From IMG/VR virus record IMGVR_UViG_3300035698_027961, positions 15,312 to 79,311 of that record: a stretch of DNA of 64,000 nt; one strand, written 5' to 3'. Each line of letters begins with the position of its first letter. Position 1 is the first letter of the stretch. Below the pieces are notes generated by a model. The model did not search any database, was not told where the DNA came from, and saw nothing but the letters and a program-made list of their open reading frames with translations. Source of the DNA: a virus. Shown one piece after another: positions 3,958-29,042 of the stretch. Made by a program: the position numbers and the translations under genes.

Positions 3958-4582
3958 ATAGCACCTTTACATATTTTGAGAATAATGAATCTATTGCCCT
4001 GGAGAAATCACCAGAAAGCACAGTTGCTATGTCAACTGTGTTTGAGCACAATATAGTTGGAAGTCCATTCTGAAACCTCTCTCGAAGAATTCTTTCCATA
4101 GTCTGGCCAAACAGCTGCTCGGCCTTTTCTGATGGAAACACCCATCGCGAATCGAATTCATCTATACATATAAAGTCAAAATTAGTAATTTGTTCTAGGT
4201 ATTCGTAATTATTCTTTGAAACTTCATTAATAACATCTGACATATTAACGTACATTGCAGTGTGGCCATTAACTATGGCTACCTTTAATATACAGCATGC
4301 AGCATATGTCTTTCCTGTTCCGAGGTTTCCAACGAATGCCATGGAGGTTCCGTCTTCATACATAGCATTGACATTTGAAATTCTATCTGAAACATATTTG
4401 CCAAAGTTTGGATCGCCCTGAAAATTTTTAAATGGAAGGCTCCAGTAGCTCTGAGGAATATTGGCGCGGGAATAGCTTTTGTATCTAGCAAATTTGGCTC
4501 TACATTTATTACATCCATCTTCGCATTCGCAACTACTCTGAATCTTCCTCTCTATCAGATTCATCTTCTTCTCTGGAACCAT
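3908..4582 (-). CDS. DnaC/IstB-like AAA+ helicase loader
   Basis: N-terminal CxC..CxxC, Walker A GNLGTGKT, Walker B ICIDE, PTILCSN, C-terminal GKDFR; GAGGT RBS. Confidence 0.88.
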   Translation of the reverse strand: MVPEKKMNLIERKIQSSCECEDGCNKCRAKFARYKSYSRANIPQSYWSLPFKNFQGDPNFGKYVSDRISNVNAMYEDGTSMAFVGNLGTGKTYAACCILKVAIVNGHTAMYVNMSDVINEVSKNNYEYLEQITNFDFICIDEFDSRWVFPSEKAEQLFGQTMERILRERFQNGLPTILCSNTVDIATVLSGDFSRAIDSLFSKYVKVLYVSGKDFRKIPGKGVA

Positions 4583-5021
4583 AACTACCTCTATTTGGAT
4601 TTGGGTTTACTAGTGAGCTCATGCTCATTGAAAACGTTGTTTGGATACCATCATCATCGCCTATCAGCATATCAGATGGAATTATAGATCCATATGCTGA
4701 ATTGCTTTCTTCATCTCCGGACTCTGCATATGGCCTTTGTCTCACGAACATTGGCGTCGGCAAAGATGAAGAATCAGAATCATCCTCATCTTCGTAATCT
4801 TGGTAGTGTTTATTTATAATTGAGTCAATCAAAGATTCATCCTCTACATCTTCTATCAACTCTGCTGCAATTAAATTTGCCTTGTAAACGATAATCATCT
4901 TATCATTTTTGCTTACCACTATAAAGTCATCTTCAATATGCTCTATAACTCCCTTGAGCTCAAATGAGTCTCTGGCGATTATATGTACCATTCTTCCGCT
5001 AATTTTTAATTTATCATTCAT
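4533..5021 (-). CDS. Hfq/Sm-like domain protein with long acidic C-terminal tail
   Basis: N-terminal VHIIARDSFELKGVIEHIEDDFIVVSKNDKMIIVYKANL aligns by eye with Hfq Sm1/Sm2 (V.IYLVNG..L.G.I..FD...ILL......VYKHAI). Confidence 0.55.
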   Translation of the reverse strand: MNDKLKISGRMVHIIARDSFELKGVIEHIEDDFIVVSKNDKMIIVYKANLIAAELIEDVEDESLIDSIINKHYQDYEDEDDSDSSSLPTPMFVRQRPYAESGDEESNSAYGSIIPSDMLIGDDDGIQTTFSMSMSSLVNPNPNRGSYGSREEDESDREEDSE

Positions 5022-5620
5022 AATATTCCTACCTCTTTTGCCTTCTCAATTACCCTTGCTTCAACCGAATCTGTGCCGAGATCATACATCTCAGCATAGT
5101 TCTTTATCATTTTGATGTCATCCTCTCTTGAGAGCTGATGATTGTCAAATATCTCCTGAGCTTCTTCGTGGCACCAAGATATTAACTTGCTCATCTTGGT
5201 TTCTCCATTCTTTTTAGCCAGGTAACCATCATACATTCTTTCAAACTCTATGATCAGCGACTGAACGTGAAATAATCTAGTTCCGTTGACAGATTGCTGG
5301 CCGCTTCTAAACTTATAGTCAAAACACCAGTTTATATAATTATATATTTTAATGTTGATGTTTTTTCTAATCTCTGACTTTTCGTCCCTAGGTAAATCTG
5401 CATAATTATTCGGAGCAAAAGTTCTAAAGAGCTTGGCGAAATCCGCAGCCTCCTTTCCCAGCGTCGGACCCTTCTTCCCCTTTACCAACCTGAATCTAAC
5501 TCCATGCTTATCTTCATACCTCTTACAGAAATGAGCTAGAAGTGTAACATGTGTCCACTCAGATATGTCGGCCTGAACCCATTTATTTATGCTGCTGTAA
5601 AAAGCTTCCTGATCAATCAA
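5018..5620 (-). CDS. hypothetical protein in replication block (200 aa)
   Basis: ORF with 4-nt overlaps to both neighbours; no recognised motif. Confidence 0.7.
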   Translation of the reverse strand: MIDQEAFYSSINKWVQADISEWTHVTLLAHFCKRYEDKHGVRFRLVKGKKGPTLGKEAADFAKLFRTFAPNNYADLPRDEKSEIRKNINIKIYNYINWCFDYKFRSGQQSVNGTRLFHVQSLIIEFERMYDGYLAKKNGETKMSKLISWCHEEAQEIFDNHQLSREDDIKMIKNYAEMYDLGTDSVEARVIEKAKEVGIL

Positions 5621-6279
5621 TTATCACTCCCTGATTTGCTCCAGTCGATTGGACTCTTTAGTCTTTCATTGGCTATTTTAAAGTGGTCACATCCGAACCA
5701 TCCTTTATTCGCAGATAGCGGTGATGGGTGTGCTGCCTTTAAGACAATATGCTTATTGGCGTCGATTAGAATTGATTTCTTCTTAGCATGGTTTCCCCAG
5801 AACATAAATACTATGGGCTCATTACGCTTATTTAGCATAGAAATTAAGTGGTCAGTAAACCGCTCCCAGCCTTTATTTTGATGACTATTCGGCTTGCCAT
5901 CTCTAACTGACATAACTGTATTTAAAAGCAAGACGCCCTGCTTTGCCCACCCGATCAAGCTTGGGCAATCTGGAGTGCAGCCTAATGAGTTATTTATTTC
6001 TTTAAAAATATTTCTCAAGGATGGCGGAACCTTCTGGTCTTTATTTACAGCAAAGGCAAGCCCGTTAGCTTGCCCCTTACCATGATACGGATCTTGCCCT
6101 ATAATGACAACCTTGACATCATTGTAATCAGTTAGCTGCAATGAACGGAAAATATCGTACCGATCCGGATAAATCGTATTATTATCATACTCCTCAATCA
6201 GAAAAGACTCTAATTTTTCCATATAGTTTTTCTTGAACTCTGGGATTAGCAATGTATGCCAACGCTTTGCTAGTCTCAT
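5617..6279 (-). CDS. ung: uracil-DNA glycosylase, family 1
   Basis: GQDPYH, PPSLRNIFKE, GVLLLNT, FWG, HPSPLS. Confidence 0.97.
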   Translation of the reverse strand: MRLAKRWHTLLIPEFKKNYMEKLESFLIEEYDNNTIYPDRYDIFRSLQLTDYNDVKVVIIGQDPYHGKGQANGLAFAVNKDQKVPPSLRNIFKEINNSLGCTPDCPSLIGWAKQGVLLLNTVMSVRDGKPNSHQNKGWERFTDHLISMLNKRNEPIVFMFWGNHAKKKSILIDANKHIVLKAAHPSPLSANKGWFGCDHFKIANERLKSPIDWSKSGSDN

Positions 6280-6287
6280 AAATCCTC

Positions 6288-7727
6288 CTACTTGACTCTT
6301 TTTATGTTAAACTCCTTTTCGGAGCAGGCAGTTTTATATCTAACCTGACTGTGGTCTCGAAGATACTTACACTGGTCATAAAAGTCTATAATATAAGCAG
6401 AATCCTTGCCAGGGTAGCTTCTGATTACTCGACCTATTCTCTGCAGCATTTTGCCGGTAGACTTGCCGCCGCCCATATTGATTAGGGCGTCTAGAATTGG
6501 AATATCAACTCCAACATCAAATATGGTTGAAGCTAAAATTACATTAACTTCTCCATTTTTAATTTTAAACACTCCGATATCTCTATCTTTGGTGCTATCT
6601 TTACCCGATAGAAATGAATGCTCAATATTGGCATTTGATAGTTTTTCTGATATGATTTCGCCATGGTTGATATTTCTAAATAAAATCAAAACCTTAAGAT
6701 CTTTTTTAACAAAGTTTTTGCAAGCCTCAACTGCCATATTATTTCTTTCGTCATTGTTGATAATATACTTAGAATATACCTCGGGGTAGGTCTTTCCGAC
6801 ACCTCTGATTGGAGAAACGTCCTTGAATACAATATTGGGACGAACCAAGAACCCCTTCTTGATTAGCATACTGGCGCTAACATCAACTATCTTTTCTCCA
6901 GCGACAGCTTCCAGAAGGATATCATCACCGCTCTCTCTCCATGGAGTTCCGGAGAATAAGAAACGATTGTATGACTTTTTAGATTCCTTGTCTAAGAACT
7001 GAAACGTGTCAGAACCACCATACTGACACTCATCTAAGATAATTACATCGGCCTGTCTAACTAGATTTCTAATATCTTCTTTATTTTTAATTTTGCCAGC
7101 ACTGCAGTCAGTATCTTCAGCATACTTAGTCTCAAGTTTCTTATCAAATGCGGCTCCGGCAGTCCATATGGTCATGACATTGATTTGCTTAATGTTACAG
7201 TGACCGTCACCAATTATTCCGGCATCGATTCCAAAAGAATCTTTTAGCGTGCTAACCATCTGATGAAGTAAGTCGATGCTAACTACATAGATAATTGACT
7301 TAGTATTGTAATGAGCAACAAGTGATGCAATAACAAATGACTTGCCCGATCCGGTACACATCTTAACTATGCCAGAACCCGCAGCAATACACTTCTTAAT
7401 TGTATTTCTCTGATAATCTCTTTCGCTAAACTTAGAGTCAGATATCGGAGACATTGGCTTTCCATAGTTCGGCTTAGTTCTATTGTCCACTTTTCGATAT
7501 GCAATATTCTTTTCGGTAAATATTTCTTCTACCGCCGAGAGCATTCCTACGGGAAAGCATAGAGACTTAGACATCAGCCTTTGCTTTCCATCCCATCTAT
7601 TGGAAATTTTCATAAACCCGAAGCCTTGAACATCATAGCTTAGTCTTTCATCTATTAGCCGAAGAACATTCTGGTCTTCAAAATCTTCAATTCTGCATCT
7701 AGTAAAATCTATATAAATCGTGGCCAT
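6288..7727 (-). CDS. SF2 DNA helicase, UvsW-like
   Basis: RDYQ, CTGSGKS, DECQ, SGTP, GVDIP, QRIGRVIR. Confidence 0.88.
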   Translation of the reverse strand: MATIYIDFTRCRIEDFEDQNVLRLIDERLSYDVQGFGFMKISNRWDGKQRLMSKSLCFPVGMLSAVEEIFTEKNIAYRKVDNRTKPNYGKPMSPISDSKFSERDYQRNTIKKCIAAGSGIVKMCTGSGKSFVIASLVAHYNTKSIIYVVSIDLLHQMVSTLKDSFGIDAGIIGDGHCNIKQINVMTIWTAGAAFDKKLETKYAEDTDCSAGKIKNKEDIRNLVRQADVIILDECQYGGSDTFQFLDKESKKSYNRFLFSGTPWRESGDDILLEAVAGEKIVDVSASMLIKKGFLVRPNIVFKDVSPIRGVGKTYPEVYSKYIINNDERNNMAVEACKNFVKKDLKVLILFRNINHGEIISEKLSNANIEHSFLSGKDSTKDRDIGVFKIKNGEVNVILASTIFDVGVDIPILDALINMGGGKSTGKMLQRIGRVIRSYPGKDSAYIIDFYDQCKYLRDHSQVRYKTACSEKEFNIKRVK

Positions 7728-7734
7728 CTAAAAC

Positions 7735-7772
7735 ACCAATAGCTTTGCCAAGTAATTCGACAAAGCATTGGT
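7735..7772 (-). promoter_or_regulatory. 16-bp RNA hairpin between tubulin and helicase genes
   Basis: Minus-strand RNA ACCAAU-GCUUUGUCGA-AUUAC-UUGGCAAAGC-U-AUUGGU; two G-U pairs form only on the minus strand. Confidence 0.5.
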
Positions 7773-7821
7773 TTATAATACCATTTTTTAAAAGATTTGC
7801 TTATTTTTTCTGTGTGATAAG

Positions 7822-9249
7822 CTATCTTTTGCGTCTCTTATCGATAATCGAATCTCTCTTGGTTCCACCACCCTGCAGCCTATTAAATCCAGAATTCTTA
7901 CTCTTAATCTTTCGTTCAATTTCTTCCTTAACACTAGATACCTTATTCTCTTCTAGATCGAGAGTCATAGCTGATGCCCTGGACTTCTCCTTACCGGCAG
8001 CAATTTCAGTCTGAGCCTTGCTCTCTTTCTTTAGAGAATCGATTCTATCTTGAGGCAATCCAAGTCCGGCGAACCAGCTATAAATCTTGATACCCTCAAC
8101 AGATTCGTCAGAGTAAACACCCTGAAAAATGCTAGCTCCGTTAGTTTGCTCAGAAATAACACTGAACATATAGTCGATATTGATTGACGGCATCTCGCTT
8201 AATGCTTCCTCAGAGCCCAAGATGATGACTCCGCCAACTCTTGTCTGAGAGAGATCGAAACCTTCTGCCAACATGTTGCCGCTGAGACTATCAATAACTG
8301 CTTCGGCCAGTGATGTTTCTTCCATATAGTCTTCTACATCGACAACTCCGTAAACAGAGCAGTCTCCTGCGGAAATTATTCTACCAAAGTCACTCGGGTC
8401 AAGAGAGGTGAACTTAGAAGGCTTGGAGGTTAAAGAGTTGAACAGACTTATGGGTTCAACTATTGCCTCATTTGCCTTGGCCCAGAACTGAGACTGACTT
8501 AGGCGATTGTAAATCTGCTCAATTCTGGCATTATCTACGACGACCAAGCTGGAGATCATATCGCCCGTAGTCATTCTTGCCAGCCTAGACAAAGTTTCAA
8601 TGGAGTTCTTCTTAGACTGAGCATCCTCAGTGGCCTTAGGGAGAACATAGATAACCCCTACGGGCATTCCTGTGCGAAACATGATGTCTACCATAGTATC
8701 TACTGACGAGCTTCCGGAGCCGCCACCTCCGGAGATTGCTAGGAATAGCATATCATTACCGTCTGCAACCTTAGAAACAAAATCTTCTAAATCTTCTTCA
8801 TGGGATGCGAAAATCTCTCTTCCCAGGTCTAGAGACTTACCAGTACCGCCTAATGATCCGGTAAGTAAAAGCTTTTGGCTCGGAAGAACATCAATGAATT
8901 CTAGGTCTTGAGCTGAAGTATTGATGACACCAACATCATATCCAAGTCTATGAAACTCTTCCGCAATTCTAGAGCCAGCCTGACCAACCCCAAGAATGCC
9001 CATATTAATACTTACACTTCTCTTGCTTACAACTTCTGGCAAATAATCCTCCCGAACCTCTTGAGATTCCTGTTTCTTTTGTGCTAGCTTCGCCTTAAGA
9101 GCGGCTAACTTGTCTTCATCGACATTTACCTTTCTCTCATAGTCTTCGCCAAATGCTTCTGATAAAACTTTATTATCCATCTCTACCTCTTCTGGTGTTT
9201 TGGGTTTCTTTTTATAAACGTGTTCCGTTATTGTTATTTTTTCATTCAT
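7822..9249 (-). CDS. tubulin/FtsZ-superfamily GTPase
   Basis: GILGVGQAGSRIA (T1), INT..DL, GGTGKSLDLG (T3), GGGGSGSS (T4 signature), VVDN, LDPSDF (T7). Start 9249 from AGGAG RBS. Confidence 0.9.
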   Translation of the reverse strand: MNEKITITEHVYKKKPKTPEEVEMDNKVLSEAFGEDYERKVNVDEDKLAALKAKLAQKKQESQEVREDYLPEVVSKRSVSINMGILGVGQAGSRIAEEFHRLGYDVGVINTSAQDLEFIDVLPSQKLLLTGSLGGTGKSLDLGREIFASHEEDLEDFVSKVADGNDMLFLAISGGGGSGSSSVDTMVDIMFRTGMPVGVIYVLPKATEDAQSKKNSIETLSRLARMTTGDMISSLVVVDNARIEQIYNRLSQSQFWAKANEAIVEPISLFNSLTSKPSKFTSLDPSDFGRIISAGDCSVYGVVDVEDYMEETSLAEAVIDSLSGNMLAEGFDLSQTRVGGVIILGSEEALSEMPSINIDYMFSVISEQTNGASIFQGVYSDESVEGIKIYSWFAGLGLPQDRIDSLKKESKAQTEIAAGKEKSRASAMTLDLEENKVSSVKEEIERKIKSKNSGFNRLQGGGTKRDSIIDKRRKR

Positions 9250-9340
9250 CTTATCTCCTAAGCGGAGGCAACCCAAGATAGCGGGTGTCCCTGATTATAC
9301 TATTTAAATGCTAAATAATTAAAAAATATAGTTTGCTTTT

Positions 9341-10333
9341 TTAATTATTACCAATATATTTTTTGATTTGCGATAGTAGAGAATCTTCCGTAATAATGGC
9401 GGGACTAACCAGCTTATTTGATTTGGACCAAGAAGCAACTTCGCATAGAAATCTTGTACCTATTTCATTCATTGGTGCGGCGTTAGTTGTAATAATATCA
9501 CATCCAGATGCCTTAGCCTCATATAGGCTGAGCCCCAGGCCCTCCTGGCTCGATGGTGCGATAATACAACTAGACTCTCTATATATTTGACCCACTTCTT
9601 CTCTGGTTAAATCTTTTTCAATAATATTAACTTGAGGAATATTATATTTCGAGTCTAACGGGGATTTCTTAACTCCCGTTATATTTAGACTTATATCTGG
9701 ATATATAATTGCGGCCCGTGAGAAGGCACTTATAACAAGCCTGGTATTCTTGGATGAAAAGTTTGGATTCAGGCTTCCCTGGTGATAGAATACAATATTA
9801 TCAAGCTTCCTTCCCGGATAGAACAAATTGGAATCTGTGAATTTCCAGCTTACCCTTGATACGTTTCTAAGTCCTGCATTATTCAATGTTTCTTTGGTGA
9901 AATCAGTTACAGCCCAAATATCTTTGAATTTATTATAAAGATTTATTAACCTTGGGTTAACCCACTCTATCATCGGAACATCTATAACTGGTATTCCTAT
10001 TCCATCAATCCACTGAGATGATTCCATTAGAGTTTCTAATGATATCAATGCCTCCGCTTTATACTTGGATATTACCGACGCTATCTGCTGCTGATGATCC
10101 CTGCCGGAGTCAAAAATTGCGAAGCCATAGCCCTGAGAGTTGTGAGAGTGAAACTCTTTTCTGTAAATGCCATTTTCTTTTATGATTCTGCCTTTAGGTA
10201 TCAACCAAACCTGATGGCCCCTATCTTCTAATTCTTTCTTGAGAGTTAGGCCAAGATATAGAAGGCCCGAAGGATGATCATAAGTTTTAATCAGAAGTCT
10301 TTTTGGTAGATTTTGCAAGGTCCATCCTGTCAA
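9341..10333 (-). CDS. GT-B (GT4-like) glycosyltransferase
   Basis: PSSQEGLGLSLYEAKASGCDII (EX7E). Start position uncertain. Confidence 0.85.
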   Translation of the reverse strand: MTGWTLQNLPKRLLIKTYDHPSGLLYLGLTLKKELEDRGHQVWLIPKGRIIKENGIYRKEFHSHNSQGYGFAIFDSGRDHQQQIASVISKYKAEALISLETLMESSQWIDGIGIPVIDVPMIEWVNPRLINLYNKFKDIWAVTDFTKETLNNAGLRNVSRVSWKFTDSNLFYPGRKLDNIVFYHQGSLNPNFSSKNTRLVISAFSRAAIIYPDISLNITGVKKSPLDSKYNIPQVNIIEKDLTREEVGQIYRESSCIIAPSSQEGLGLSLYEAKASGCDIITTNAAPMNEIGTRFLCEVASWSKSNKLVSPAIITEDSLLSQIKKYIGNN

Positions 10334-11009
10334 TAGAGGCTTTTCTTATTTCTTTAATATTCTCTGCGTGCTTAAGCTGAATATCACTTCTCTGAGTTAG
10401 AGAACCGCCATTGGGAATAATTCGATAATAGTACATAACCTTGTGAATATATTCTATTGGGTATAGCTCACTGATTCTTAGCCAGTAATCATAATCTTCC
10501 GCTATCCAATACTTCTCATTGAATGGTCCAATTTTGTTAAAGACATCCCTTCTAATTGTTGTAGAGCCAGAGGCTACAAAGTTTTGGGACATAAGCCTTG
10601 AATGATTGATTATTATTTTTTGAGGATAGAACTGCGGCCTGACCCTTCCGTTTACCAATATCTTATAGTTTCCGCATACCATTCCAAGTTCTGGATTATT
10701 AATCATGGCATGAACAGAGCTGAATAATTTGTCTTGATTCATAATATCATCATCATCTAAAAAGCTAATCAAAGGTGCTGTGGTCATGGATATTCCATAG
10801 TTTCTAGCTCCACCAGGGCCCACATTTTCAGGCGTCTTGATGAAGTTAACCTGAGGATATCTTTTTTTCAAACCAGATATATCTGATGTTGAGCAATCAT
10901 CAACTACAGTAAGTTTGTAATCTTTATATGACTGATTTAGGCAACTATCAATAGCTTCGACTATATACGACTTGGGATTATAAGTCGGCATAATTATATC
11001 AACTTTCAT
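10287..11009 (-). CDS. GT2 glycosyltransferase
   Basis: IIMPTYN, VVDDCS, GARNYG, FLDDDD, EDYDYWLR. Confidence 0.93.
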   Translation of the reverse strand: MKVDIIMPTYNPKSYIVEAIDSCLNQSYKDYKLTVVDDCSTSDISGLKKRYPQVNFIKTPENVGPGGARNYGISMTTAPLISFLDDDDIMNQDKLFSSVHAMINNPELGMVCGNYKILVNGRVRPQFYPQKIIINHSRLMSQNFVASGSTTIRRDVFNKIGPFNEKYWIAEDYDYWLRISELYPIEYIHKVMYYYRIIPNGGSLTQRSDIQLKHAENIKEIRKASIDRMDLAKSTKKTSD

Positions 11010-11934
11010 ATTCTAAATACTTCCTCGCGTAATCTATTGGTGAGTTCTTAAGATTGTCTATAACGAATTGCCTTCCGTTGCTTGCAATCTTATCATAAAG
11101 AAGTGAGTCGCTCATTACTTCCTCTATGGCTTCGCAATAAGCATTTAAAGTTTTGGGAACTACTATCCCGTCGTGTCTATTAGATAGCTCTAAATTTATC
11201 TTGGGATGAATGATACACGGAATTTTAGCATAAAGCTGCTCAATTATGGTGCATCCCATTGTCTCGCTCAAGGATGTCGAGAAATAAATATGAGACTGCT
11301 TAGCAGAACGAATATGCTCAGAGTAATTATAAGGACTTGGGTAGCCTATAAATTTAAACTTAAACTGAGGAAGATTTTTTGCCACCAAGAGCGCAAAGTC
11401 TACATCCTTAACCATCTGCCTGGAATTACCCTTCCATAGAATGGTTCCATCATCATTGTGAACCGGCTCCCATAGATTTAAATTAGGAGCTATCCTGAGT
11501 AGGTCTATTTTATTATCGTCTATGCCATAGAGCCTGGCTATCTTTGATTTTAATTTATGATTTACCGTTAGTATTTTACTGAAAGCATCAATTTCAAGAT
11601 ATCTTGATTCTTCTTCTCGATTAACAGTATCTATCAGGTTTGGCCCGGATATTATCTTTATCGAATTATTAAACATTTTAATTATGTTTACAAACTCTAA
11701 TGAAATTCCGCTCCAATGATGTAGAACTTCTGATTTCTTAACAGAGGCTTTTATAGCTTTTGTATCTCGTAAATTCTTGACATTAGGATAAGTGCTTGGA
11801 ATTTTTGAAAAAACATTGACTTCGTAGCCGAGACCTCTGAGTGATTCCGCAAAGCTAACGAGAGAAACGCCGGGGCCATTAAAGTGGCATCCGGCGTTTC
11901 CATAATTAAAAGTTATTATGGTAACTGTTTTCAA
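10999..11934 (-). CDS. GT-B (GT4-like) glycosyltransferase
   Basis: STSLSETMGCTIIEQLYAKIPCI (EX7E). Confidence 0.8.
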   Translation of the reverse strand: MKTVTIITFNYGNAGCHFNGPGVSLVSFAESLRGLGYEVNVFSKIPSTYPNVKNLRDTKAIKASVKKSEVLHHWSGISLEFVNIIKMFNNSIKIISGPNLIDTVNREEESRYLEIDAFSKILTVNHKLKSKIARLYGIDDNKIDLLRIAPNLNLWEPVHNDDGTILWKGNSRQMVKDVDFALLVAKNLPQFKFKFIGYPSPYNYSEHIRSAKQSHIYFSTSLSETMGCTIIEQLYAKIPCIIHPKINLELSNRHDGIVVPKTLNAYCEAIEEVMSDSLLYDKIASNGRQFVIDNLKNSPIDYARKYLEYES

Positions 11935-11935
11935 C

Positions 11936-12253
11936 CTAAGAGTTCCTGTTAAATAAATCCTCTAGGGATTCTTTTCCCTTAAATCCAACCATTCTGTCTA
12001 CTTCCTTTCCGCCTCTAAAAACTATTAGGCATGGAATACTAGTTATTGAATATTGGGCCGAAATTGCTGGAAAATCAGATACATTTACCTTTCCAATACT
12101 AACCGCGCCATCATACTTCTCAGACATTCCGTCAAGAACGGGACCTAGAATCTTACATGGTCCGCACCAAGCGGCCCAAAAATCAACGACAACAGTCTTC
12201 TCATTTTGGATAAATTCGTTAAAGCTTTCGCTATTTAATTCTTCAACTGCCAT
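11936..12253 (-). CDS. trxA: thioredoxin
   Basis: VVDFWAAWCGPCK, SIP. Confidence 0.96.
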   Translation of the reverse strand: MAVEELNSESFNEFIQNEKTVVVDFWAAWCGPCKILGPVLDGMSEKYDGAVSIGKVNVSDFPAISAQYSITSIPCLIVFRGGKEVDRMVGFKGKESLEDLFNRNS

Positions 12254-12261
12254 AAAATCTC

Positions 12262-12477
12262 CTAGTGGACTTCGTAGTATGAATTAACGGACATATCTTC
12301 CATTATCATGACTAATACGCTATCCTGTTCATCTTTGCTCATTTTGACGAAATCTTCAAAAAGTTCTTTTGCATACTCTGAGGCCAGCGTTCTTATGTAG
12401 TTAGATTCACCACCACTTTTACTGTAAGCTTCCAGTATTCTTAAAGATTCCTCAAATGATCCTTTAGTTAGAAACAT
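12262..12477 (-). CDS. hypothetical protein (~71 aa)
   Basis: Start MFLTKG chosen because the longer ORF-track start lies inside the upstream small gene. Confidence 0.6.
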   Translation of the reverse strand: MFLTKGSFEESLRILEAYSKSGGESNYIRTLASEYAKELFEDFVKMSKDEQDSVLVMIMEDMSVNSYYEVH

Positions 12478-12622
12478 CTTTTTTATCCCCCGTATCCTCC
12501 TCTGTCTTTTTATCAGAGTCTTCAACAAGGTCATCTACGGTATATCTTTCTTCCTGTGAGGCTGTTTTGGCTCCGTCTTTCTTTACGAAAACCTTAACCT
12601 CTCCATCTTTCTTAAAACTCAT
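12464..12622 (-). CDS. small charged hypothetical protein (52 aa), missing from ORF track
   Basis: AGGAGG RBS, then MSFKKDGEVKVFVKKDGAKTASQEERYTVDDLVEDSDKKTEEDTGDKKDVSN*. Confidence 0.7.
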   Translation of the reverse strand: MSFKKDGEVKVFVKKDGAKTASQEERYTVDDLVEDSDKKTEEDTGDKKDVSN

Positions 12623-12691
12623 TAAGCCTCCTGGCACTATTTACAATAGTATATCCCAATATAAATATATTACCGCAAGGATTTGATTTTT

Positions 12692-14266
12692 TTAGATCAA
12701 TTTCAAGAACCTGAGGAACTTTAGAAGTAATGATTCCTTGGCGGTAGCAACCGGTTTATTTATATGATCGGAATCCTGGTCAGAAGTGTTATCCTCCGCG
12801 CCAGTCACCGAGTTTTCAAGGGCAGCCTCGTCCTTGGAATTTTGCAGAAAGTTCATTTTTTCTACTTCCAGTAAAATTAATCTAAGTGATTCGCGTAGTT
12901 TACTGATTTCGATATCTCTAGACTCATCTGAGGTTTCTTTTACATTTTTACCACCAGCCGAACCTAATTTTTCATTAAATGCCCGCACTAAATCTCTGCC
13001 TTTACTATAATCAATTGATCTTTTTATAGCTTTAGCGGGAGTAATCGTGTTTTTGTTCTTTCTAGGGCCATCTTCCGCTAAGGCAAACTCATCTATCGAC
13101 TGACTCTCTATAAGTCTTTTCTTAATGAGTATATCCCTACTTTTTTCACGTATCTTTATAAGTTTTTTAGATTCAGATTCAAGAAACTTAAGGTAAGCAT
13201 CGCCAGACATGCTCTGTGATAAATCTAGCCTCTCAGAAATATTTATTTTCTTCGGAGAGTCATCGGACGCATCTTCACAGGATAAGCTAAACCTATTTGC
13301 CTTAGCCCTCATGAATGTCTCTGCTGCCTTGCCCCTAAGGCCAGATTTGTAGTACTCGGCAGTCTCTCTCAGCCCATCATCAAAATTCTTTACAATATGG
13401 TATCCAAAAGATTCACTTGCCCAGCCGGTATCCGCCTGAGAGCATCTAACATCACCGGCCCGCTCTTTTCTGTAAAAAGGCTCCATACAACCTAACTTTT
13501 CGTGTAGCTCATTTACTGTAACTTTAATGCCGGAACCAACATTAAAGACCATATGTTTTAATGGCATTGAAAAAGTTGATGCCAAATAATTCGCCTCAAC
13601 TACGTTATCAACATGAGTGAAGTCACGGTATTGTTCACCATCCCCATGAATGATTGGCCTAATTTTTAATTTATTGCATTCTAAAAATGAAGATATTACC
13701 GAGGCATATGGTGAATCACCTCTCTGACGGTTGCCAAAAACATTAAAATACCTAAGACAAACAGTTTCATTCTTATAAATCTTGGAAAAAAGTTCGCAAA
13801 GTTCTTCGCCAAACTTCTTATGCATTGCGTAAGGAGACTTGGGGCTTAGAGGGGTGTCTTCCGGTGTTGGTAGAATCTGGGATCCTCCATAAACCGAAGA
13901 AGAGGATGAGAAGATAAATCTAGCACCGTGTTCTTTCGCAAGATTAAGAACATTAACCGTCCCCATAATATTTACATCTGATGTTTCAACAGGCTGCTCA
14001 ACCGAATAATACACTCCGGGAATTGCAGCAAGATGAAATACATAATCAGGCATAAAGCTATCAAAAACTTTCTGTAGTGATTTCATATCTCTGATATCAA
14101 CTTGTTCAAAGGAAAGGCGCGGATTATCACTATGCTGGTCTAAATTGGCTAGGTCTCCACGGCTTAGATTGTCAATCACACAGACTTCAAACCCCTTATA
14201 CATAAGTTTATCAACTAGGTGGCTTCCTATGAAGCCACATCCGCCAGTAACTATTGCTTTTTTCAT
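12692..14266 (-). CDS. NAD-dependent nucleotide-sugar epimerase/dehydratase (WbpP/GalE-like) with ~210-aa C-terminal extension
   Basis: TGGCGFIG, HLAA, SSSSVYG, SPYAMHK (YxxxK), RYFNVFG, GDGEQYRDF. Confidence 0.9.
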   Translation of the reverse strand: MKKAIVTGGCGFIGSHLVDKLMYKGFEVCVIDNLSRGDLANLDQHSDNPRLSFEQVDIRDMKSLQKVFDSFMPDYVFHLAAIPGVYYSVEQPVETSDVNIMGTVNVLNLAKEHGARFIFSSSSSVYGGSQILPTPEDTPLSPKSPYAMHKKFGEELCELFSKIYKNETVCLRYFNVFGNRQRGDSPYASVISSFLECNKLKIRPIIHGDGEQYRDFTHVDNVVEANYLASTFSMPLKHMVFNVGSGIKVTVNELHEKLGCMEPFYRKERAGDVRCSQADTGWASESFGYHIVKNFDDGLRETAEYYKSGLRGKAAETFMRAKANRFSLSCEDASDDSPKKINISERLDLSQSMSGDAYLKFLESESKKLIKIREKSRDILIKKRLIESQSIDEFALAEDGPRKNKNTITPAKAIKRSIDYSKGRDLVRAFNEKLGSAGGKNVKETSDESRDIEISKLRESLRLILLEVEKMNFLQNSKDEAALENSVTGAEDNTSDQDSDHINKPVATAKESLLLKFLRFLKLI

Positions 14267-15261
14267 TTAATTATCCTTTTTAGTGAGCCAATATCATTTA
14301 AATACATTTCTTTCAGAAGTTTCTTCCAGTCATAATTCGATGACCAACCAAGCTTATCGGAAGCCTTACTGGGATCGCCGCGTAAGAATAATACCTCGGA
14401 CGGCCTCATAAATCTAGAATCTTCCCTATATATATCTGAGAAATTTAATTCGGCCAGGCTACAGACGTACTCAAACATCTCTTTAATTGTAGCACCTGTT
14501 CCGGTAGAGATTAGATAATCATCAGGAGAATCTTGCTGAAGCATCATCCACATCGCTTTAACGAAATCCTTGGAGTGACCCTCATCCCTGAATGCTTCTA
14601 GATTTCCCATTCTTACTTCGGACTTAAGACCCAGCTTAACTGAGGCAACCCCCGATGTTATTTTCCTGGTTGCAAAGTCGTGCCCTCTTCTTGGGCTGGA
14701 ATGGTTGAATAACATTCCATTGCATGCAAAAATATCATAAGCTTCTCGATAGTTAATCACAGACCAGTATGCGGCAACCTTAGATACGCCATATGGTGAC
14801 CTGGGATGAAACGGTGAATCTTCCGTATATCCAGAGTTTGGACATCCGATACCTCCCCACATTTCGCTAGTGCTGGCCTGATAAAAACGAGTTGACGGAG
14901 AGAATTGGCGAATCAATTCTAGCTGATTAATGACAGCCTCAGAGTTAACCCTGAACGTTAATTGCGGCTCACAGAAAGACTGTCCGACATTTGACATTGC
15001 GGCCAAGTTATACCATTCATGTGGCTGATAATCATGCAGGACTCTTGAGATAAGTGTTGGGTCTAAAATATCACCATATATAATTTTAAAATTATCATTA
15101 GGTAATAGATGCAGAACGTTATCTATACATAGGTATGTACTCTTTCGCCTAGTTATTCCGATAACGGTATAGCCTTTGCTTAGCAAGAGTTCTGACAGAT
15201 ACGATCCATCCTGACCGGCGACTCCAGTAATTACCGCAGTTAGTCCCTTATGAGTTGTCAA
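14263..15261 (-). CDS. gmd: GDP-mannose 4,6-dehydratase
   Basis: ITGVAGQDGSYL, NLAAMS, YQASTSE, PRSPYGVSK, LFNH.SPRRG..F.TRKIT, RPSEV; AGGAG RBS before TTG. Confidence 0.92.
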   Translation of the reverse strand: MTTHKGLTAVITGVAGQDGSYLSELLLSKGYTVIGITRRKSTYLCIDNVLHLLPNDNFKIIYGDILDPTLISRVLHDYQPHEWYNLAAMSNVGQSFCEPQLTFRVNSEAVINQLELIRQFSPSTRFYQASTSEMWGGIGCPNSGYTEDSPFHPRSPYGVSKVAAYWSVINYREAYDIFACNGMLFNHSSPRRGHDFATRKITSGVASVKLGLKSEVRMGNLEAFRDEGHSKDFVKAMWMMLQQDSPDDYLISTGTGATIKEMFEYVCSLAELNFSDIYREDSRFMRPSEVLFLRGDPSKASDKLGWSSNYDWKKLLKEMYLNDIGSLKRIIK

Positions 15262-15469
15262 TTATATCTCCTGTGCGACGATCATAAAAATAAGCCAATA
15301 CGTCTTTCAAAACACTCCACACAAGGTGCGCGGCCTTTATCCATATTTGAAATTTTTTCCATGTTATATATTAGGTACCTTATCTCTTTTCCAATGGCCC
15401 CGAAAAAATCATATTTTATTTCTTTTGATATTTAAAATTTAACAATATAGCTTAGGAATCAGAAAATAA

Positions 15470-15856
15470 CTAATCCTCCAGTTCAAAGTATTCAACGGCA
15501 GCTTTTGAAAATTGACGTGCGGTCATATTAGAAATTTCCTCTAACCTGTCTATATTATAGAGTAGGTATTCTTTTTCCAGCTCGGTAAATATAGGAGAAT
15601 TTGAAATAAGATCAAGAGCCTTGCCTGGGTCTTTTTCTAGCAACTTAATTGAAGCAACCTTATTAATCCAGGCGTATGAAAAATCTTTATTTGAATCGTT
15701 ATTCGAATTAAAATTTTCATAAAATGCACTAGATTTGTAAGCATCCTTTAGCTTATCGACTCTATCATATATATCTGTTTCTTTACCTTCTGGCTCATCT
15801 TTAGAGAATCTAGAGGATTTTTTCTCAACTCTTTTTACAACGCCACCTTTACTCAT
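15470..15856 (-). CDS. hypothetical protein (128 aa)
   Basis: ORF; shares a short helical motif with the neighbouring ORF. Confidence 0.65.
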   Translation of the reverse strand: MSKGGVVKRVEKKSSRFSKDEPEGKETDIYDRVDKLKDAYKSSAFYENFNSNNDSNKDFSYAWINKVASIKLLEKDPGKALDLISNSPIFTELEKEYLLYNIDRLEEISNMTARQFSKAAVEYFELED

Positions 15857-15860
15857 TCGA

Positions 15861-16448
15861 TTATCCTAAGTTATCTTTGATTATTTTTTTAATTTGTTCT
15901 ATATTTTCAAACTTGGAAAATAAATAGCCATATTTTCCGAAATTGTTCATAGAAAATATAACGTTAGTCTTTGATTCTTCAGAGATTAATATGGATGACA
16001 TTATAGAAGAGAATGCTTCGGGTTCTTTTAAAGTACTTTCGCAACGATTACCAAGTGCGTTAAAGGGAAATGGAATACTAAGCTGTTTTTGGTCTTTCAT
16101 ACCAATCACTAATAACGTTGAATTTATTATATCTAATTTCGCTAAATCTGTGATATATTCGTTATTAATTATATCATTTAAATATTTTGCCATTTTAGAA
16201 CTAGATGATCCATCTTTATGAAGCTTAATTAAATTATTCTTAAAATCTTGCTTAAGGAGCCCAATTAGATGTTCCGTTAAGATATTCTTTTCGGTCTCAT
16301 TGAAAGTTGCCGTAGATAAAATCTCTTTTATAAAAGTTTCTTTATCTTTTTCATTTTTTACTAGCGCATCTTTGAACTCTCTGGCGCACGATGATGCCCG
16401 AAGCCTTCTTTTCCTCTCTTCGCTATCCAATTCAGTTAAAGTTGTCAT
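15861..16448 (-). CDS. hypothetical protein (195 aa)
   Basis: ORF in operon-like packing. Confidence 0.65.
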   Translation of the reverse strand: MTTLTELDSEERKRRLRASSCAREFKDALVKNEKDKETFIKEILSTATFNETEKNILTEHLIGLLKQDFKNNLIKLHKDGSSSSKMAKYLNDIINNEYITDLAKLDIINSTLLVIGMKDQKQLSIPFPFNALGNRCESTLKEPEAFSSIMSSILISEESKTNVIFSMNNFGKYGYLFSKFENIEQIKKIIKDNLG

Positions 16449-16452
16449 ATAC

Positions 16453-17253
16453 CTAATCCTTTCTAAATTTATTTCTTTCTTTAATAGCGGCCTTTAAGAC
16501 TCTTCTTGGTGTGCCCTTCTTCTTCATAAATTGCAACAAAGCATTTGTATCCTTCGGAAAACACGCCCCGCCATAACTAAGCTTGCCATCCGGCCCAGGG
16601 ACAGATACGTGATTTGAAGAGATCCACGAGTTATCAAGCATCATAGATAATACTTTATTGTAGTCCGCTCCGGTTTCTTCACAGAGGGTATAAAATTCAT
16701 TAAAAATTTGCACTTTAATAGCATAAAATGAATTAGCGAAAAGCTTCATCGACTCTGACTCTTCAGGGCTAGATGTCGAAATCTTAGCATTAGGAAATAA
16801 GTCTTTATACATGTGAACCATAACTTCTTCATCATCTGAATTAACAGAACCTATGACTATGTGCTTTTGGTTTCTAAAGTCTTCAACCGCAGTTCTTGCC
16901 GTTAGAAATTCTGGATTATGAACCATTCTAAGTCCATATTTTATAGCAAGGTCTCTGGTTGTCTCTGGCTCAACCGTGCTTTTAATAACAACAATTCCCT
17001 CATATGAGTTATTCTTAAGAATCTTACATGTATCATATATTGCTGACTTGTCAAACCCGACTTTATCAACGTATGGTGTCGGAAGGCATAAAAATACAAC
17101 ATCTGTGTTAATAACTCTATCGATACTTCCAATTCCATTGTACTTATCGTAAGCGTTCAAACTATATTTGCCATCAAAGGTCGGAAGCTTTTCGGACAGC
17201 ACCATTCTCATAGCCCCTCCGACAAATCCGAGGCCGATGATTCCTATGCGCAT
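16453..17253 (-). CDS. UDP-glucose/GDP-mannose dehydrogenase family, short form lacking the C-terminal domain
   Basis: IGIIGLGFVG, CLPTP, KSTV.P, NPEFL, K...N, YGGACFPKD. Start 17253 from AAGGA RBS. Confidence 0.9.
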   Translation of the reverse strand: MRIGIIGLGFVGGAMRMVLSEKLPTFDGKYSLNAYDKYNGIGSIDRVINTDVVFLCLPTPYVDKVGFDKSAIYDTCKILKNNSYEGIVVIKSTVEPETTRDLAIKYGLRMVHNPEFLTARTAVEDFRNQKHIVIGSVNSDDEEVMVHMYKDLFPNAKISTSSPEESESMKLFANSFYAIKVQIFNEFYTLCEETGADYNKVLSMMLDNSWISSNHVSVPGPDGKLSYGGACFPKDTNALLQFMKKKGTPRRVLKAAIKERNKFRKD

Positions 17254-17263
17254 ACTTAATCCT

Positions 17264-18199
17264 TTATTTGGTGTAGGCTGATTCAAACTCTTCCATTATA
17301 ATCCTTAGCTCGTCTTTCTTAACATGACGGTTGTCTGATTTATACGGTGAGTCGAAGTATTCTTTTACTATTTCATATGACGGCCAATAAAACAAACTTT
17401 TACCGGCGTCCTCTGATTCTCTATAGAATTCGTCAATGGCGGACCTTAGTATAGACTTTGATACACTATTTGCAGTAACGCAAGATTTATCTCTAAATGT
17501 GGCAACAAGCGGAACCGGAGATAGAGAAAATACAACATTTGCATTAGGACGATTCTTTTTTATCAAACTATATATATATTTTATGTTCTTTTTATTCTCT
17601 GAGAATGAGGCGACTTTAAAAGCATGAACCTTTGGGTTAAATTTTTCTTCGGGTATGGACCTCCAGAAGACAGCACCTGACTCTTTATTATACCACACTT
17701 CGCTAAGCCCAAGGGTTATAATAAACAGGTCAGTCTTATTAAAAACATCGAGAGTCGACTTCCTCAAAGCCTTGCTTCTGGATATCTTATTCTTGTCAGA
17801 TGCGTGCCAAGTCTCTTCTGAGAATTCTTTATTTTCATAGACCCACTCAAAAAGTTGGCGAATAGCAAAGGTGTTATTAACTCCGGCCCTGAAGTCTATT
17901 ATTTCTCCGGATGATCCACTTGATATAGAGTATCCTTTTTCGACTAAGTAGTTTGATATATTTTCGGCAAAACAGCTTCCGAATGCCAAAATCTTTGTAT
18001 CTTTGGATATGAAAGGCTCTTGTGGTAGCCATCCCTTTAGGATATACTTCTTAATGGCTTCGGGTTCTTTTAAATTTGCAAGGCTGGGGTTAAAATTACA
18101 ATTTTCTCCGCGATACCAGCTTTTATGAGCCTCTCCGGATATTCCGTCCTTAGTGTAGTATATTTTTCCGTTCTTTCTTTCGGTCTTGTCGTTGGACAT
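17264..18199 (-). CDS. GSCFA-domain protein
   Basis: FGSCFAENI, IITLGLSEVW, SLSPVPL, NSVSKS.LR, Y.PSYE, D.RHV. Confidence 0.88.
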   Translation of the reverse strand: MSNDKTERKNGKIYYTKDGISGEAHKSWYRGENCNFNPSLANLKEPEAIKKYILKGWLPQEPFISKDTKILAFGSCFAENISNYLVEKGYSISSGSSGEIIDFRAGVNNTFAIRQLFEWVYENKEFSEETWHASDKNKISRSKALRKSTLDVFNKTDLFIITLGLSEVWYNKESGAVFWRSIPEEKFNPKVHAFKVASFSENKKNIKYIYSLIKKNRPNANVVFSLSPVPLVATFRDKSCVTANSVSKSILRSAIDEFYRESEDAGKSLFYWPSYEIVKEYFDSPYKSDNRHVKKDELRIIMEEFESAYTK

Positions 18200-18715
18200 T
18201 TAGCCCTCCGGGTACACCAGGATAATGTTTTCCTCTTGGTATACAATACTACCACCAGGCTTTAATAACCTTAGTATGTATTTTTTATTTTTTTTAAAAA
18301 ATGCTGCATCGTCAATAATCAATGCGTCTATTGCTCTATTGGGCATTGCCGATAGGCCGTTTAGCTCTTTGTCTTCGGAAATCCTAAATATAAAAGACTT
18401 TGGGTGGCTAAGACTTATACTTAAAAGTAAGTCGATATCTTTATCTGCCACCATATATTGCACTTGTAATTTATCAGACAGGGCAGAAATATTCTTAAAA
18501 GACTTGGAAGATAAGTCTAAGACTACATCATAGTCTTTTAAATTATAAAACCACCAGGATTGCTCCATGATGGCCTCTGTAGACTTTGAATACTTTTCTA
18601 AACATAGAGTTTCTTCAGCTTTAATTCCAATTATATTTCTATAGATATGCGGGCATAATGCACATCGCTTTTCGCAAAAAATATTAGATCCGCAATGACT
18701 ACATAATAGATCCAT
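18200..18715 (-). CDS. Cys-rich N-terminus plus degenerate SAM-methyltransferase-like domain
   Basis: CSHC...C...CALC; VVLDL, IDALII, RLLKPGG; the glycine-rich motif I is absent. Confidence 0.45.
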   Translation of the reverse strand: MDLLCSHCGSNIFCEKRCALCPHIYRNIIGIKAEETLCLEKYSKSTEAIMEQSWWFYNLKDYDVVLDLSSKSFKNISALSDKLQVQYMVADKDIDLLLSISLSHPKSFIFRISEDKELNGLSAMPNRAIDALIIDDAAFFKKNKKYILRLLKPGGSIVYQEENIILVYPEG

Positions 18716-18914
18716 ATCCTTCTCCGAAAATTTTTCTAGATAATTTTAATAAATTTTTATTCCTCAAAAAGAATGATATAAATTTTTTGTCTTTAGATAA
18801 TTCTTCCCATCTCTTCAGCACATTCATGCTGGTCGCCTGGCCGTCGAAGGTCTTTCCGTCAAAGCTGCTTCCGCCTCCATGATTAAATTCAAAATCATTA
18901 ATTATTTTAGGCAT
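18699..18914 (-). CDS. hypothetical protein (~71 aa)
   Basis: Fills the gap between neighbours; start MPKII inferred. Confidence 0.55.
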   Translation of the reverse strand: MPKIINDFEFNHGGGSSFDGKTFDGQATSMNVLKRWEELSKDKKFISFFLRNKNLLKLSRKIFGEGYGSIM

Positions 18915-20094: not shown

Positions 20095-20095
20095 A

Positions 20096-26408: not shown

Positions 26409-26417
26409 TGCCACCTC

Positions 26418-29023: not shown

Positions 29024-29042
29024 CAGGTCCACCTTAAGACAA

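What the first reader, a model, noticed from the sequence alone, without database searches (positions are those of the whole stretch)
7822..9249. Atypical phage tubulin with long N- and C-terminal extensions
Seen: a full GTPase core (T4 loop GGGGSGSS rather than GGGTG[ST]G), a ~78-aa charged N-terminal arm with a coiled-coil-like LAALKAKLAQKKQE, and a ~75-aa C-terminal tail ending IIDKRRKR. Known: PhuZ of nucleus-forming phages is shorter and ends in an acidic tail; TubZ tails are basic and bind DNA adaptors. No chimallin-like gene is recognisable here. Inference: a distinct phage cytoskeletal lineage for DNA or capsid positioning, or for interfering with host FtsZ.
Basis: partly seen in the sequence, partly recalled or inferred. 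Interest (0 to 1): 0.7.

Follow-up and report, generated by a model that had tools for sequence, protein, structure and literature searches.

The report
Huge-phage TubZ-like tubulin tied to glycosyltransferase
This gene encodes an intact tubulin-family filament protein from an undescribed branch found only in very large uncultured phages that lack a phage nucleus, and in many close relatives it is fused to the neighbouring sugar-transferring enzyme, hinting at a cytoskeleton that organises glycan decoration rather than centring a nucleus.

Summary
Window 7822-9249 (minus strand) encodes a 475-aa tubulin/FtsZ-superfamily GTPase (Pfam Tubulin + TubZ-like_C) with T4 loop GGGGSGSS, an intact T7 (SLDPSDF), an 82-aa N-terminal arm and a basic C-terminal tail.

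The clade is single-copy and syntenic in 330-480 kb uncultured phages. These lack detectable chimallin, multisubunit RNAP, integrase and ParB. No TubR gene or tubC repeats are adjacent.

The main new point concerns the gene's position. It always sits between a glycan-biosynthesis cluster and the replication module.
- In the close (saline/marine) subclade, a GT4 glycosyltransferase lies directly upstream.
- That GT4 is fused to the tubulin in 49 of 119 closest homologues, with at least 8-10 fused/split switches.
- Fused forms retain a GAGGA + ATG at the junction.

Both arms are conserved clade-wide, so the N-arm predates the fusion. Function is inferred: a GTP-driven filament whose arms dock partners, probably including the GT4. 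Binding and polymerisation are untested.

First readers of this scan noted the same family on other genomes. New variant of a known kind; interest moderate to high.

The parts
7822..9249 (-). Tubulin-family gene (475 aa plus stop); member of a phage-restricted TubZ-like clade
   Evidence: ORF. Pfam PF00091 at residues 85-248 and PF22453 at 271-406. AF2 model pLDDT 88.9. Fold closest to TubZ.
9004..9249 (-). N-terminal arm (residues 1-82): acidic motif ENxxLxxAF-type, then a KLAALKAKLAQKK helix, then a linker. It has no counterpart in solved tubulin-family structures.
   Evidence: 82 aa against 4-24 aa in references. Conserved architecture across the clade down to ~32% identity. Structural alignments start at residue ~74. 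Helices at 19-32 and 45-66.
8707..8730 (-). T4 signature loop GGGGSGSS (residues 174-181). The close subclade has GGGG[ST]GSS; the wider clade has the canonical GGGTGSG.
8386..8406 (-). T7-equivalent loop SLDPSDF (D284, D287), invariant in the close family; near-identical to Bt TubZ YDPSDL
7825..8052 (-). C-terminal region (residues 400-475): H11-like helix at 400-428, then a tail with conserved K-x-S-G-F-N-R-L-Q and terminal S-I-I-D-K-R-R-K-R
9250..9340 (-). AT-rich spacer between GT4 and tubulin, with TATAAT (9299-9294) and AGGAG (9259-9255) 5 nt before the ATG. The alternative TTG start is at 9276.
   Evidence: Sequence read. The spacer is reproduced without change in a second assembly.
9341..10333 (-). 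GT4-family (GT-B fold, retaining type) glycosyltransferase with an invariant E-x7-E motif. It is the gene fused to the tubulin in many close relatives.
   Evidence: Pfam PF00534/PF13692. Alignment A3. Model pLDDT 88.9. Fold matches chlorovirus GT, BshA, MshA, PimA, WbnH, PglA. Fusion and adjacency.
7742..7766 (-). Terminator-like hairpin just after the tubulin stop codon
   Evidence: Consensus scan only; function not shown.

Best explanation
The gene encodes a polymerising, GTP-hydrolysing TubZ-like tubulin. It belongs to a previously uncharacterised, phage-restricted clade that is a single-copy, syntenic gene of a lineage of 330-480 kb uncultured phages without a chimallin nucleus.

Shown: family membership, intact nucleotide-binding and T7 residues, TubZ-type fold with the H11 helix, clade separation from PhuZ, plasmid TubZ and FtsZ, conserved arms, and conserved position between the glycan cluster and the replication module.

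Inferred mechanism: subunits assemble head to tail into dynamic filaments in the infected cell. The 80-aa N-arm projects from the filament surface as a flexible docking arm. In the saline/marine subclade it carries or recruits the adjacent GT4 glycosyltransferase. The link is covalent where the GT4 stop codon is lost, and translationally coupled or separate elsewhere, as in this window. The conserved basic C-terminal peptide (SGFNRLQ...IIDKRRKR) binds a second partner: cargo, nucleic acid, membrane or the neighbouring subunit.

The filament would then act as a scaffold or positioning device that spatially organises the phage's glycan-decoration machinery, and perhaps virion assembly or DNA. 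It would not act as a nucleus-centring spindle or a TubZRC partition motor.
For: Identity:
- Pfam Tubulin + TubZ-like_C above cut-offs.
- Best solved-structure sequence match is RepX/TubZ 4ei7, E 7e-16.
- Foldseek top hits are TubZ.
- T1 GQAGS, T4, T6 DN and T7 DPSD are conserved.

Clade:
- 162 clusters (50% identity) at E<=1e-30.
- 69 viral loci on contigs up to 481 kb.
- Trees give a separate clade with SH-aLRT 96-98.
- Only 2 hits in 185,579 species genomes, both on short MAG contigs.
- One copy in each of 5 complete relatives.
- Inteins inserted in the T4 motif of distant members argue that the gene matters.

Not nucleus type: no chimallin (phiKZ control 1.8e-232) and no RNAP beta-like subunit.

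GT coupling:
- GT4 is directly upstream in all 17 close-clade loci and fused in 10 of them.
- 49 of 119 closest homologues are fused, with at least 8-10 state changes on the tree.
- Fused forms keep GAGGA + ATG at the junction.
- The GT4 orthologue is present only next to the tubulin in close-clade genomes and absent from two complete distant-clade genomes.
- The GT4 keeps E-x7-E and a GT4 fold.
- The synteny glycan cluster / tubulin / replication module holds across both clades.

Arms are conserved clade-wide.
Against: - Polymerisation, GTPase activity and any binding are untested.
- The N-arm predates the GT4, so it did not evolve as a GT linker.
- The distant clade has no adjacent GT4; its upstream neighbour is an epimerase.
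- Frequent fused/split switching with a retained internal start could mean the fusion is near-neutral read-through between translationally coupled genes.
- In this window the two genes are separated by a 91-nt spacer with its own promoter-like and RBS signals, which is the loosest coupling seen.
- Adjacency to the replication module equally suits a DNA-positioning role.
- Trees used the quick search, deep nodes are unresolved, and no CetZ or eukaryotic tubulin sequences were included.
Confidence: 0.45

Rival explanations
1. PhuZ-like positioning spindle without a nucleus. The filament positions replicating phage DNA, the replisome or capsids in the cell. The glycosyltransferase adjacency and fusion is incidental gene order.
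For: The gene directly precedes the conserved replication module (UvsW-like helicase, unknown 200-aa protein, DnaC-like, DnaB-like) in nearly all loci. All characterised phage tubulins position DNA, compartments or capsids (papers read). The basic tail (+10 over the last 30 aa) could bind nucleic acid. The arms predate the GT4. Fused forms keep an internal start that can yield free tubulin.
Against: No adaptor or centromere has been identified. Fusion to a 38-kDa enzyme is maintained across about 40% of close homologues. The GT4 orthologue occurs only beside the tubulin. The gene is also the last gene of the glycan cluster in every locus.
Confidence: 0.3
2. Type III (TubZRC-like) partition motor that segregates a plasmid-like prophage or pseudolysogenic genome, as in Clostridium phage c-st.
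For: The closest solved relatives are plasmid-partition TubZ/RepX. No integrase or ParB is found in five complete relatives, so an extrachromosomal carrier state would need another partition system. IMG/VR labels two relatives 'provirus'.
Against: No TubR-like small winged-helix gene is adjacent in the window or relatives. No iterated tubC-like repeats lie within 4000-12500. The clade is separate from plasmid and c-st TubZ in the trees. Genomes of 330-480 kb with terminal repeats look like lytic huge phages.
Confidence: 0.1
3. Host-takeover factor that co-assembles with or antagonises host FtsZ, or remodels the envelope, to block division or enlarge the cell for very large virions.
For: It is in the same superfamily as FtsZ. 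In many relatives the next gene is a peptidoglycan hydrolase: Amidase_2 + PG_binding in 8 close loci and GH25 in 19 distant loci. The C-terminal F/L motif followed by a basic run resembles the layout of the FtsZ C-terminal peptide (my own knowledge, not tested).
Against: It has only ~20% identity to FtsZ. The TIGR00065 score is 50.7 against a cut-off of 295. FtsZ is structurally the most distant of the compared families. The host is unknown. This window has no PG hydrolase next to the gene.
Confidence: 0.07

Closest known systems
Plasmid TubZ / RepX (Bacillus pBtoxis TubZ, pXO1 RepX; type III partition)
   Different: About 18-21% identity. It forms a separate clade. There is no TubR gene and no tubC repeats. 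It has an extra 80-aa N-arm and a different conserved tail motif. It is phage-borne and coupled to a glycosyltransferase.
PhuZ of chimallin (nucleus-forming) jumbo phages
   Same: A phage-encoded tubulin in a very large phage. It shares the T-to-S change in the signature motif (GGGSGS in 201phi2-1).
   Different: PhuZ is ~326 aa with an acidic or neutral tail. It is sister to the whole TubZ-like assembly and does not contain this clade. The PHROG 'tubulin PhuZ' hit is weak, E 6e-5. BFVD PhuZ matches are E~1e-13, against 3.6e-51 for this clade's own member. Relatives have no chimallin and no msRNAP.
TubZ of Clostridium phage c-st and gp138 of Bacillus phage G
   Same: Phage-encoded TubZ-like proteins. 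Phage G gp138 is the only hit among 50,697 cultured-phage records (25% identity).
   Different: Short N-termini (4-5 aa) and different tails. They group with plasmid TubZ, not with this clade. c-st has TubR, tubC and TubY (literature).
FtsZ / CetZ
   Same: Same superfamily fold and GTPase motifs. JGI auto-annotations call family members 'FtsZ' or 'CetZ'.

Membership tests
Tubulin/FtsZ superfamily | GTPase domain with T1-T6 nucleotide-binding loops, including the glycine-rich signature motif | tested here: met
   PF00091 E 7e-12, 46.4 bits against a cut-off of 33. T1 GVGQAGS, T4 GGGGSGSS (variant: T to S and final G to S), T6 VVDN.
Tubulin/FtsZ superfamily | T7 loop with acidic residues that complete the active site of the next subunit | tested here: met
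   SLDPSDF; D284 and D287 are invariant in the close family, and D284 is invariant in the 68-sequence alignment.
Tubulin/FtsZ superfamily | GTP-dependent polymerisation | not testable with these tools
   Needs purified protein.
TubZ (type III partition, TubZRC) | TubZ-type C-terminal domain and long H11 helix; closest fold | tested here: met
TubZ (type III partition, TubZRC) | Adjacent TubR DNA-binding adaptor gene | tested here: not met
   The upstream gene is a GT4 and the downstream gene a helicase. Small flanking ORFs in relatives give DUF1653, DUF6897, weak Hfq-like hits or nothing. Plasmid TubZ references do have a ~110-aa upstream ORF.
TubZ (type III partition, TubZRC) | Iterated centromere repeats (tubC) near the operon | tested here: not met
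   Only two-copy, chance-level repeats within 4000-12500.
TubZ (type III partition, TubZRC) | Phylogenetic grouping with characterised TubZ | tested here: inconclusive
   It lies within the same TubZ-like assembly (support 96), but in a different subclade from pBtoxis, pXO1 and c-st TubZ. Deep nodes are open.
PhuZ (Chimalliviridae spindle) | Groups with PhuZ in phylogeny or profile | tested here: not met
   PhuZ is a separate clade with support 100, outside the 41-row assembly that holds the window's protein. phrog_4733 gives only E 6e-5.
PhuZ (Chimalliviridae spindle) | Co-occurrence with chimallin and a multisubunit RNAP | tested here: not met
   phrog_4795 is absent from 4 complete relatives, with phiKZ control E 1.8e-232, and from this contig. 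PF00562 is absent, with a positive control. HMM sensitivity limits apply.
PhuZ (Chimalliviridae spindle) | Short acidic C-terminal tail | tested here: not met
   The tail's net charge is +7 over the last 25 aa, against 0 to -4 in PhuZ.
FtsZ | Meets the FtsZ equivalog model and groups with FtsZ | tested here: not met
   TIGR00065 scores 50.7 bits against a cut-off of 295.2. The FtsZ clade (support 99) excludes it.
CetZ | Groups with archaeal CetZ | tested here: inconclusive
GT4 retaining glycosyltransferases (the partner gene) | GT-B fold with an E-x7-E motif | tested here: met
   PF00534. E264...E272 are invariant. Fold matches BshA, MshA, PimA, WbnH. Activity and acceptor are not testable here.

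The most novel reading that the evidence does not exclude
A viral tubulin filament that carries a glycosyltransferase, either as a fusion or as a docked partner. This would be cytoskeleton-guided glycosylation inside phage-infected bacteria: a viral counterpart of FtsZ/MreB-guided wall synthases, in a widespread lineage of huge phages that use tubulin without a phage nucleus.
Probability: 0.3. Interest if true: 0.8.

Novelty: new variant of a known kind. Interest (0 to 1): 0.62.

Why it matters
In the literature I could read, phage tubulins are known essentially as PhuZ, which centres the chimallin nucleus and traffics capsids, and as c-st TubZ, which partitions a plasmid prophage. A study of marine jumbo phages even reported tubulin as unique to the phiKZ-like group.

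This clade shows that a different, large and conserved tubulin lineage is a standard gene of chimallin-less phages of 330-480 kb from saline, marine and other habitats. The repeated fusion to a GT4 enzyme gives a concrete, testable hypothesis for a new kind of cargo for a bacterial-type cytoskeleton. The conserved arms, and the inteins lodged in the signature motif, give handles for biochemistry.

Tried and rejected
- The search for related loci with the single protein found nothing because its patterns were too specific. The alignment query worked.
- Complex prediction of GT4 + tubulin returned 'no answer' (score 0.00). It is not used as evidence either way.
- No RNA holder was listed among the sequencing runs, so there is no statement on expression.
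- The N-arm helix as a membrane-targeting amphipathic helix: the hydrophobic moment is low (0.15), so this was not pursued.
- GT4 as a MurG-like or catalytically dead adaptor domain: rejected, because the fold is GT4 with an intact E-x7-E motif.
- Nesting in PhuZ or FtsZ: rejected.
- In the tree, one outgroup row ('actino_3') was a wrong-frame ORF from my simple ORF picker and should be ignored.
- PhuZ was not among the top 50 structural rows. This says only that it ranks lower.
- Literature searches for this clade or for a GT-tubulin fusion found nothing. The library is incomplete, so prior description elsewhere is not excluded.

Full report
**1. The observation**

The minus strand holds an ORF from 9276 (TTG) or 9249 (ATG) to the stop at 7822-7824. 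The ATG at 9249 is preceded by AGGAG (9259-9255, 5 nt upstream) and a TATAAT (9299-9294), within a 91-nt AT-rich spacer after the upstream gene. Homologues begin at the equivalent residue. The product is therefore the 475-aa protein P0001.

Pfam finds the Tubulin/FtsZ GTPase domain (residues 85-248, E 7e-12) and the TubZ-like C-terminal domain (271-406, E 8e-7), both above their curated cut-offs.

- GGGGSGSS at residues 174-181.
- A charged N-terminal arm of 82 aa before strand S1, containing LAALKAKLAQKKQE.
- A 76-aa C-terminal region ending IIDKRRKR, with net charge +10 over the last 30 residues.

Two public assemblies from other runs reproduce the region with a few substitutions and no indels, including the spacer between the two genes. 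The gene and its separation from the upstream gene are therefore not assembly artefacts.

**2. What kind of genome**

The window lies in a 79-kb linear IMG/VR viral contig, which is a fragment. All genes are on one strand, in this order:
- A baseplate and tail-fibre block with giant ORFs (Baseplate_J; a ConA-like lectin domain).
- A ~20-kb block of glycosyltransferases and sugar-nucleotide enzymes.
- The tubulin.
- A replication block: UvsW-like helicase, UDG, an unknown 200-aa protein, a DnaC/IstB-like ATPase, an HTH protein and a DnaB-like helicase.

The DNA occurs in salt-lake metagenomes.

**3. The family**

The word-indexed search found 276 homologues. The best 120 are 60-73% identical over the full length, on contigs up to 422 kb. 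The exhaustive HMMER search found 1486 representative clusters at E<=1e-3 and 162 at E<=1e-30.

In IMG/VR, 69 loci encode relatives, on contigs up to 481 kb. Five essentially complete relatives (332-481 kb, CheckV 99-100%, two with terminal repeats) each have exactly one tubulin.

Only two hits appeared in 185,579 prokaryotic species genomes, both on short MAG contigs that are probably mis-binned phage DNA. Among 50,697 cultured-phage records, only Bacillus phage G gp138 matches, at 25% identity. The family is thus large, effectively phage-restricted and uncultured.

**4. Classification**

By sequence, the best solved relative is RepX/TubZ (4ei7, E 7e-16), followed by archaeal FtsZ.

- CetZ 35-37.
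- c-st TubZ 33-34.
- FtsZ 30-33.
- PhuZ is not among the top 50.

In the viral structure library the only close match is an 'uncultured Caudovirales' protein from the same clade (E 3.6e-51), while PhuZ models reach about 1e-13. The FtsZ equivalog model scores 50.7 bits against a cut-off of 295.

Two maximum-likelihood trees (LG+C20, quick search) agree. In the better-rooted one:
- Bacterial plus archaeal FtsZ form a clade (support 99).
- PhuZ (support 100) is sister to a TubZ-like assembly (support 96).
- Within that assembly, the window's clade (18 rows, support 96) is separate from the group holding pBtoxis TubZ, pXO1 RepX, two other plasmid TubZs, c-st TubZ and phage G gp138.

One search, with 87 rows, gives the same picture (clade of 45 rows, support 98).

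Caveats:
- Deep nodes are unresolved.
- References sit on long branches.
- No CetZ or eukaryotic tubulin sequences were included.
- One outgroup row was mis-extracted and should be ignored.

**5. Motifs and arms**

- T1 is GVGQAGS, with the Q typical of TubZ, CetZ and tubulin.
- The T4 signature has S in place of T. This also occurs in 201phi2-1 PhuZ and in distant clade members.
- T4 also has S in place of the final G. That change is specific to the close subclade; the wider clade has the canonical GGGTGSG.
- T7 is SLDPSDF, close to Bt TubZ's YDPSDL, with D284 and D287 conserved.

The protein therefore has what it needs to bind GTP and to activate hydrolysis in a polymer. That is an inference from homology, not a measurement.

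The N-arm has no counterpart in any solved structure, because structural alignments start at residue ~74. It is 73-82 aa long throughout the clade, against 4-24 aa in the references.

Both arms keep their architecture down to ~32% identity:
- N-arm: an acidic N-terminal motif followed by a D-x-x-K-L-A-x-L-K-A-K-L helix.
- C-terminus: the H11 helix, then K-x-S-x-F-x-K-L, then (I/V)(I/V)-D-[KR]-R-[KR] at the very end.

They are therefore ancestral functional elements. The N-arm helix is not strongly amphipathic.

**6. Not a nucleus spindle, not a recognisable TubZRC**

The chimallin profile (phrog_4795) finds nothing in four complete relatives, while phiKZ scores 1.8e-232. It also finds nothing in this contig. 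An RNAP beta-like subunit is likewise absent, with a positive phiKZ control.

No TubR-like gene flanks the tubulin here or in relatives, and no iterated repeats lie nearby. No tyrosine integrase or ParB is found in five complete relatives.

**7. The link to a glycosyltransferase**

In my ORF-cluster map of 69 loci, the tubulin always sits at the 3' end of the glycan cluster and 5' of the replication module. In the distant (38-47% identity) clade the upstream neighbour is an NAD-dependent epimerase/dehydratase.

In the close clade (>=61% identity), the upstream neighbour is always one particular GT4 glycosyltransferase. It forms a single ORF of 800-831 aa with the tubulin in 10 loci, overlaps or abuts it in 6, and is separated by a spacer only in this window. 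Pfam confirms the GT1 + Tubulin architecture.

Among the 119 closest homologues, 49 are fused and 70 split. The tree needs at least 8-10 switches, and the window lies in an all-split subclade of 24 rows. Some 'split' calls may be truncated or mis-called genes.

Fused genes keep a GAGGA 5-8 nt before an in-frame ATG exactly at the junction, encoded within Y-Y-E-D-F-x-M. A fused gene could therefore produce both the fusion and free tubulin.

The GT4 keeps an invariant E-x7-E motif. It folds as a GT-B GT4 enzyme closest to a chlorovirus GT, BshA, MshA, PimA, WbnH and PglA. Its orthologue occurs only beside the tubulin in close-clade genomes and is absent from two complete distant-clade genomes.

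So the GT4 arrived next to a tubulin that already had its N-arm, and it has since been joined to that arm many times. A complex prediction gave no answer, so binding remains untested.

**8. Interpretation**

The identity (a new phage-restricted TubZ-like clade, polymerisation-competent by its motifs) is well supported.

For the role, I favour a filament whose arms dock partners, including the GT4, so that glycan decoration is spatially organised (0.45). The main rival is a DNA, replisome or capsid positioning role with incidental GT adjacency (0.30). Next come a c-st-like partition role (0.10) and interference with host division or the envelope (0.07). The last is hinted at only by peptidoglycan hydrolase genes next to the tubulin in many relatives.

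**9. Novelty**

I found no description of this clade or of a GT-tubulin fusion in the papers I could search. Huge-phage surveys mention 'tubulin homologues (PhuZ)' only in the context of the nucleus.

First-reader notes of this scan flagged the same family on several other genomes, including its overlap with the last glycosyltransferase gene. Those notes were unchecked, and I tested the coupling here on independent loci.

It is a new variant of a known kind of protein.

Noticed in passing
Distant family members P0143, P0153, P0155, P0182, P0184, P0198, P0236, P0250 (not in the window): Inteins with LAGLIDADG homing endonucleases are inserted in the tubulin signature motif. In P0153 the N-extein ends ...GGGG, the intein starts with C, and the C-extein resumes TGSG. 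Intein-bearing tubulins appear unusual and mark the T4 loop as an essential site.
   Followed up: partly
window 9341-29032 (-): A ~20-kb block of about ten glycosyltransferases (GT1/GT4, GT2), GDP-mannose dehydratase/epimerase-type enzymes and a thioredoxin (11936-12253), lying between the tail-fibre genes and the tubulin. An earlier first-reader note (e1-6067490) describes it.
   Followed up: partly
window 29088-62472 (-): A run of giant ORFs (1511, 3247, 1103, 627, 2063, 781 and 1608 aa). The 1103-aa ORF has Baseplate_J, and the 3247-aa ORF has a ConA-like lectin domain near its C-terminus. The rest have no Pfam match. These are presumably baseplate and fibre proteins, and candidate glycosylation targets.
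   Followed up: partly
window 5018-5620 (-): A 200-aa protein with no Pfam or NCBIfam match is conserved in 54 of the fetched loci, always between the UvsW-like helicase and the DnaC-like ATPase. It is a candidate origin-binding or replication-initiation protein, or an adaptor.
   Followed up: partly
window 4533-5021 (-); relatives L003:15431-15847, L015:15442-15927: A small protein with an Sm/Hfq-like N-terminal half (weak Hfq hit, E 1e-3, in a relative) and a long acidic tail, conserved in the replication block.
   Followed up: partly
L003:11352-12284 and 7 other close loci; L015:12418-13266 and 18 other distant loci: In many relatives, peptidoglycan hydrolases (Amidase_2 + PG_binding_1, or GH25 muramidase) lie immediately or closely downstream of the tubulin. 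This is not the case in this window.
   Followed up: partly
L087 (Actinomycetota MAG contig, 16.6 kb) and L088 (Pacearchaeota MAG contig, 8.3 kb): Two MAGs from unrelated phyla carry this phage tubulin (61-70% identity) on short contigs. These are probably phage contigs mis-binned into the MAGs.
   Followed up: no
whole contig G000 (79,311 bp): CheckV completeness is given as 3%, although syntenic complete relatives are 330-480 kb, which would make this fragment about 17-24% of a genome. IMG/VR also labels two complete relatives of 332 and 481 kb as 'provirus', with no integrase found.
   Followed up: partly
window 12692-14266 (-): The epimerase/dehydratase here is 524 aa. The enzyme domain ends near residue 256, and a ~260-aa charged C-terminal extension has no family match. 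Relatives' epimerases are ~320 aa.
   Followed up: no
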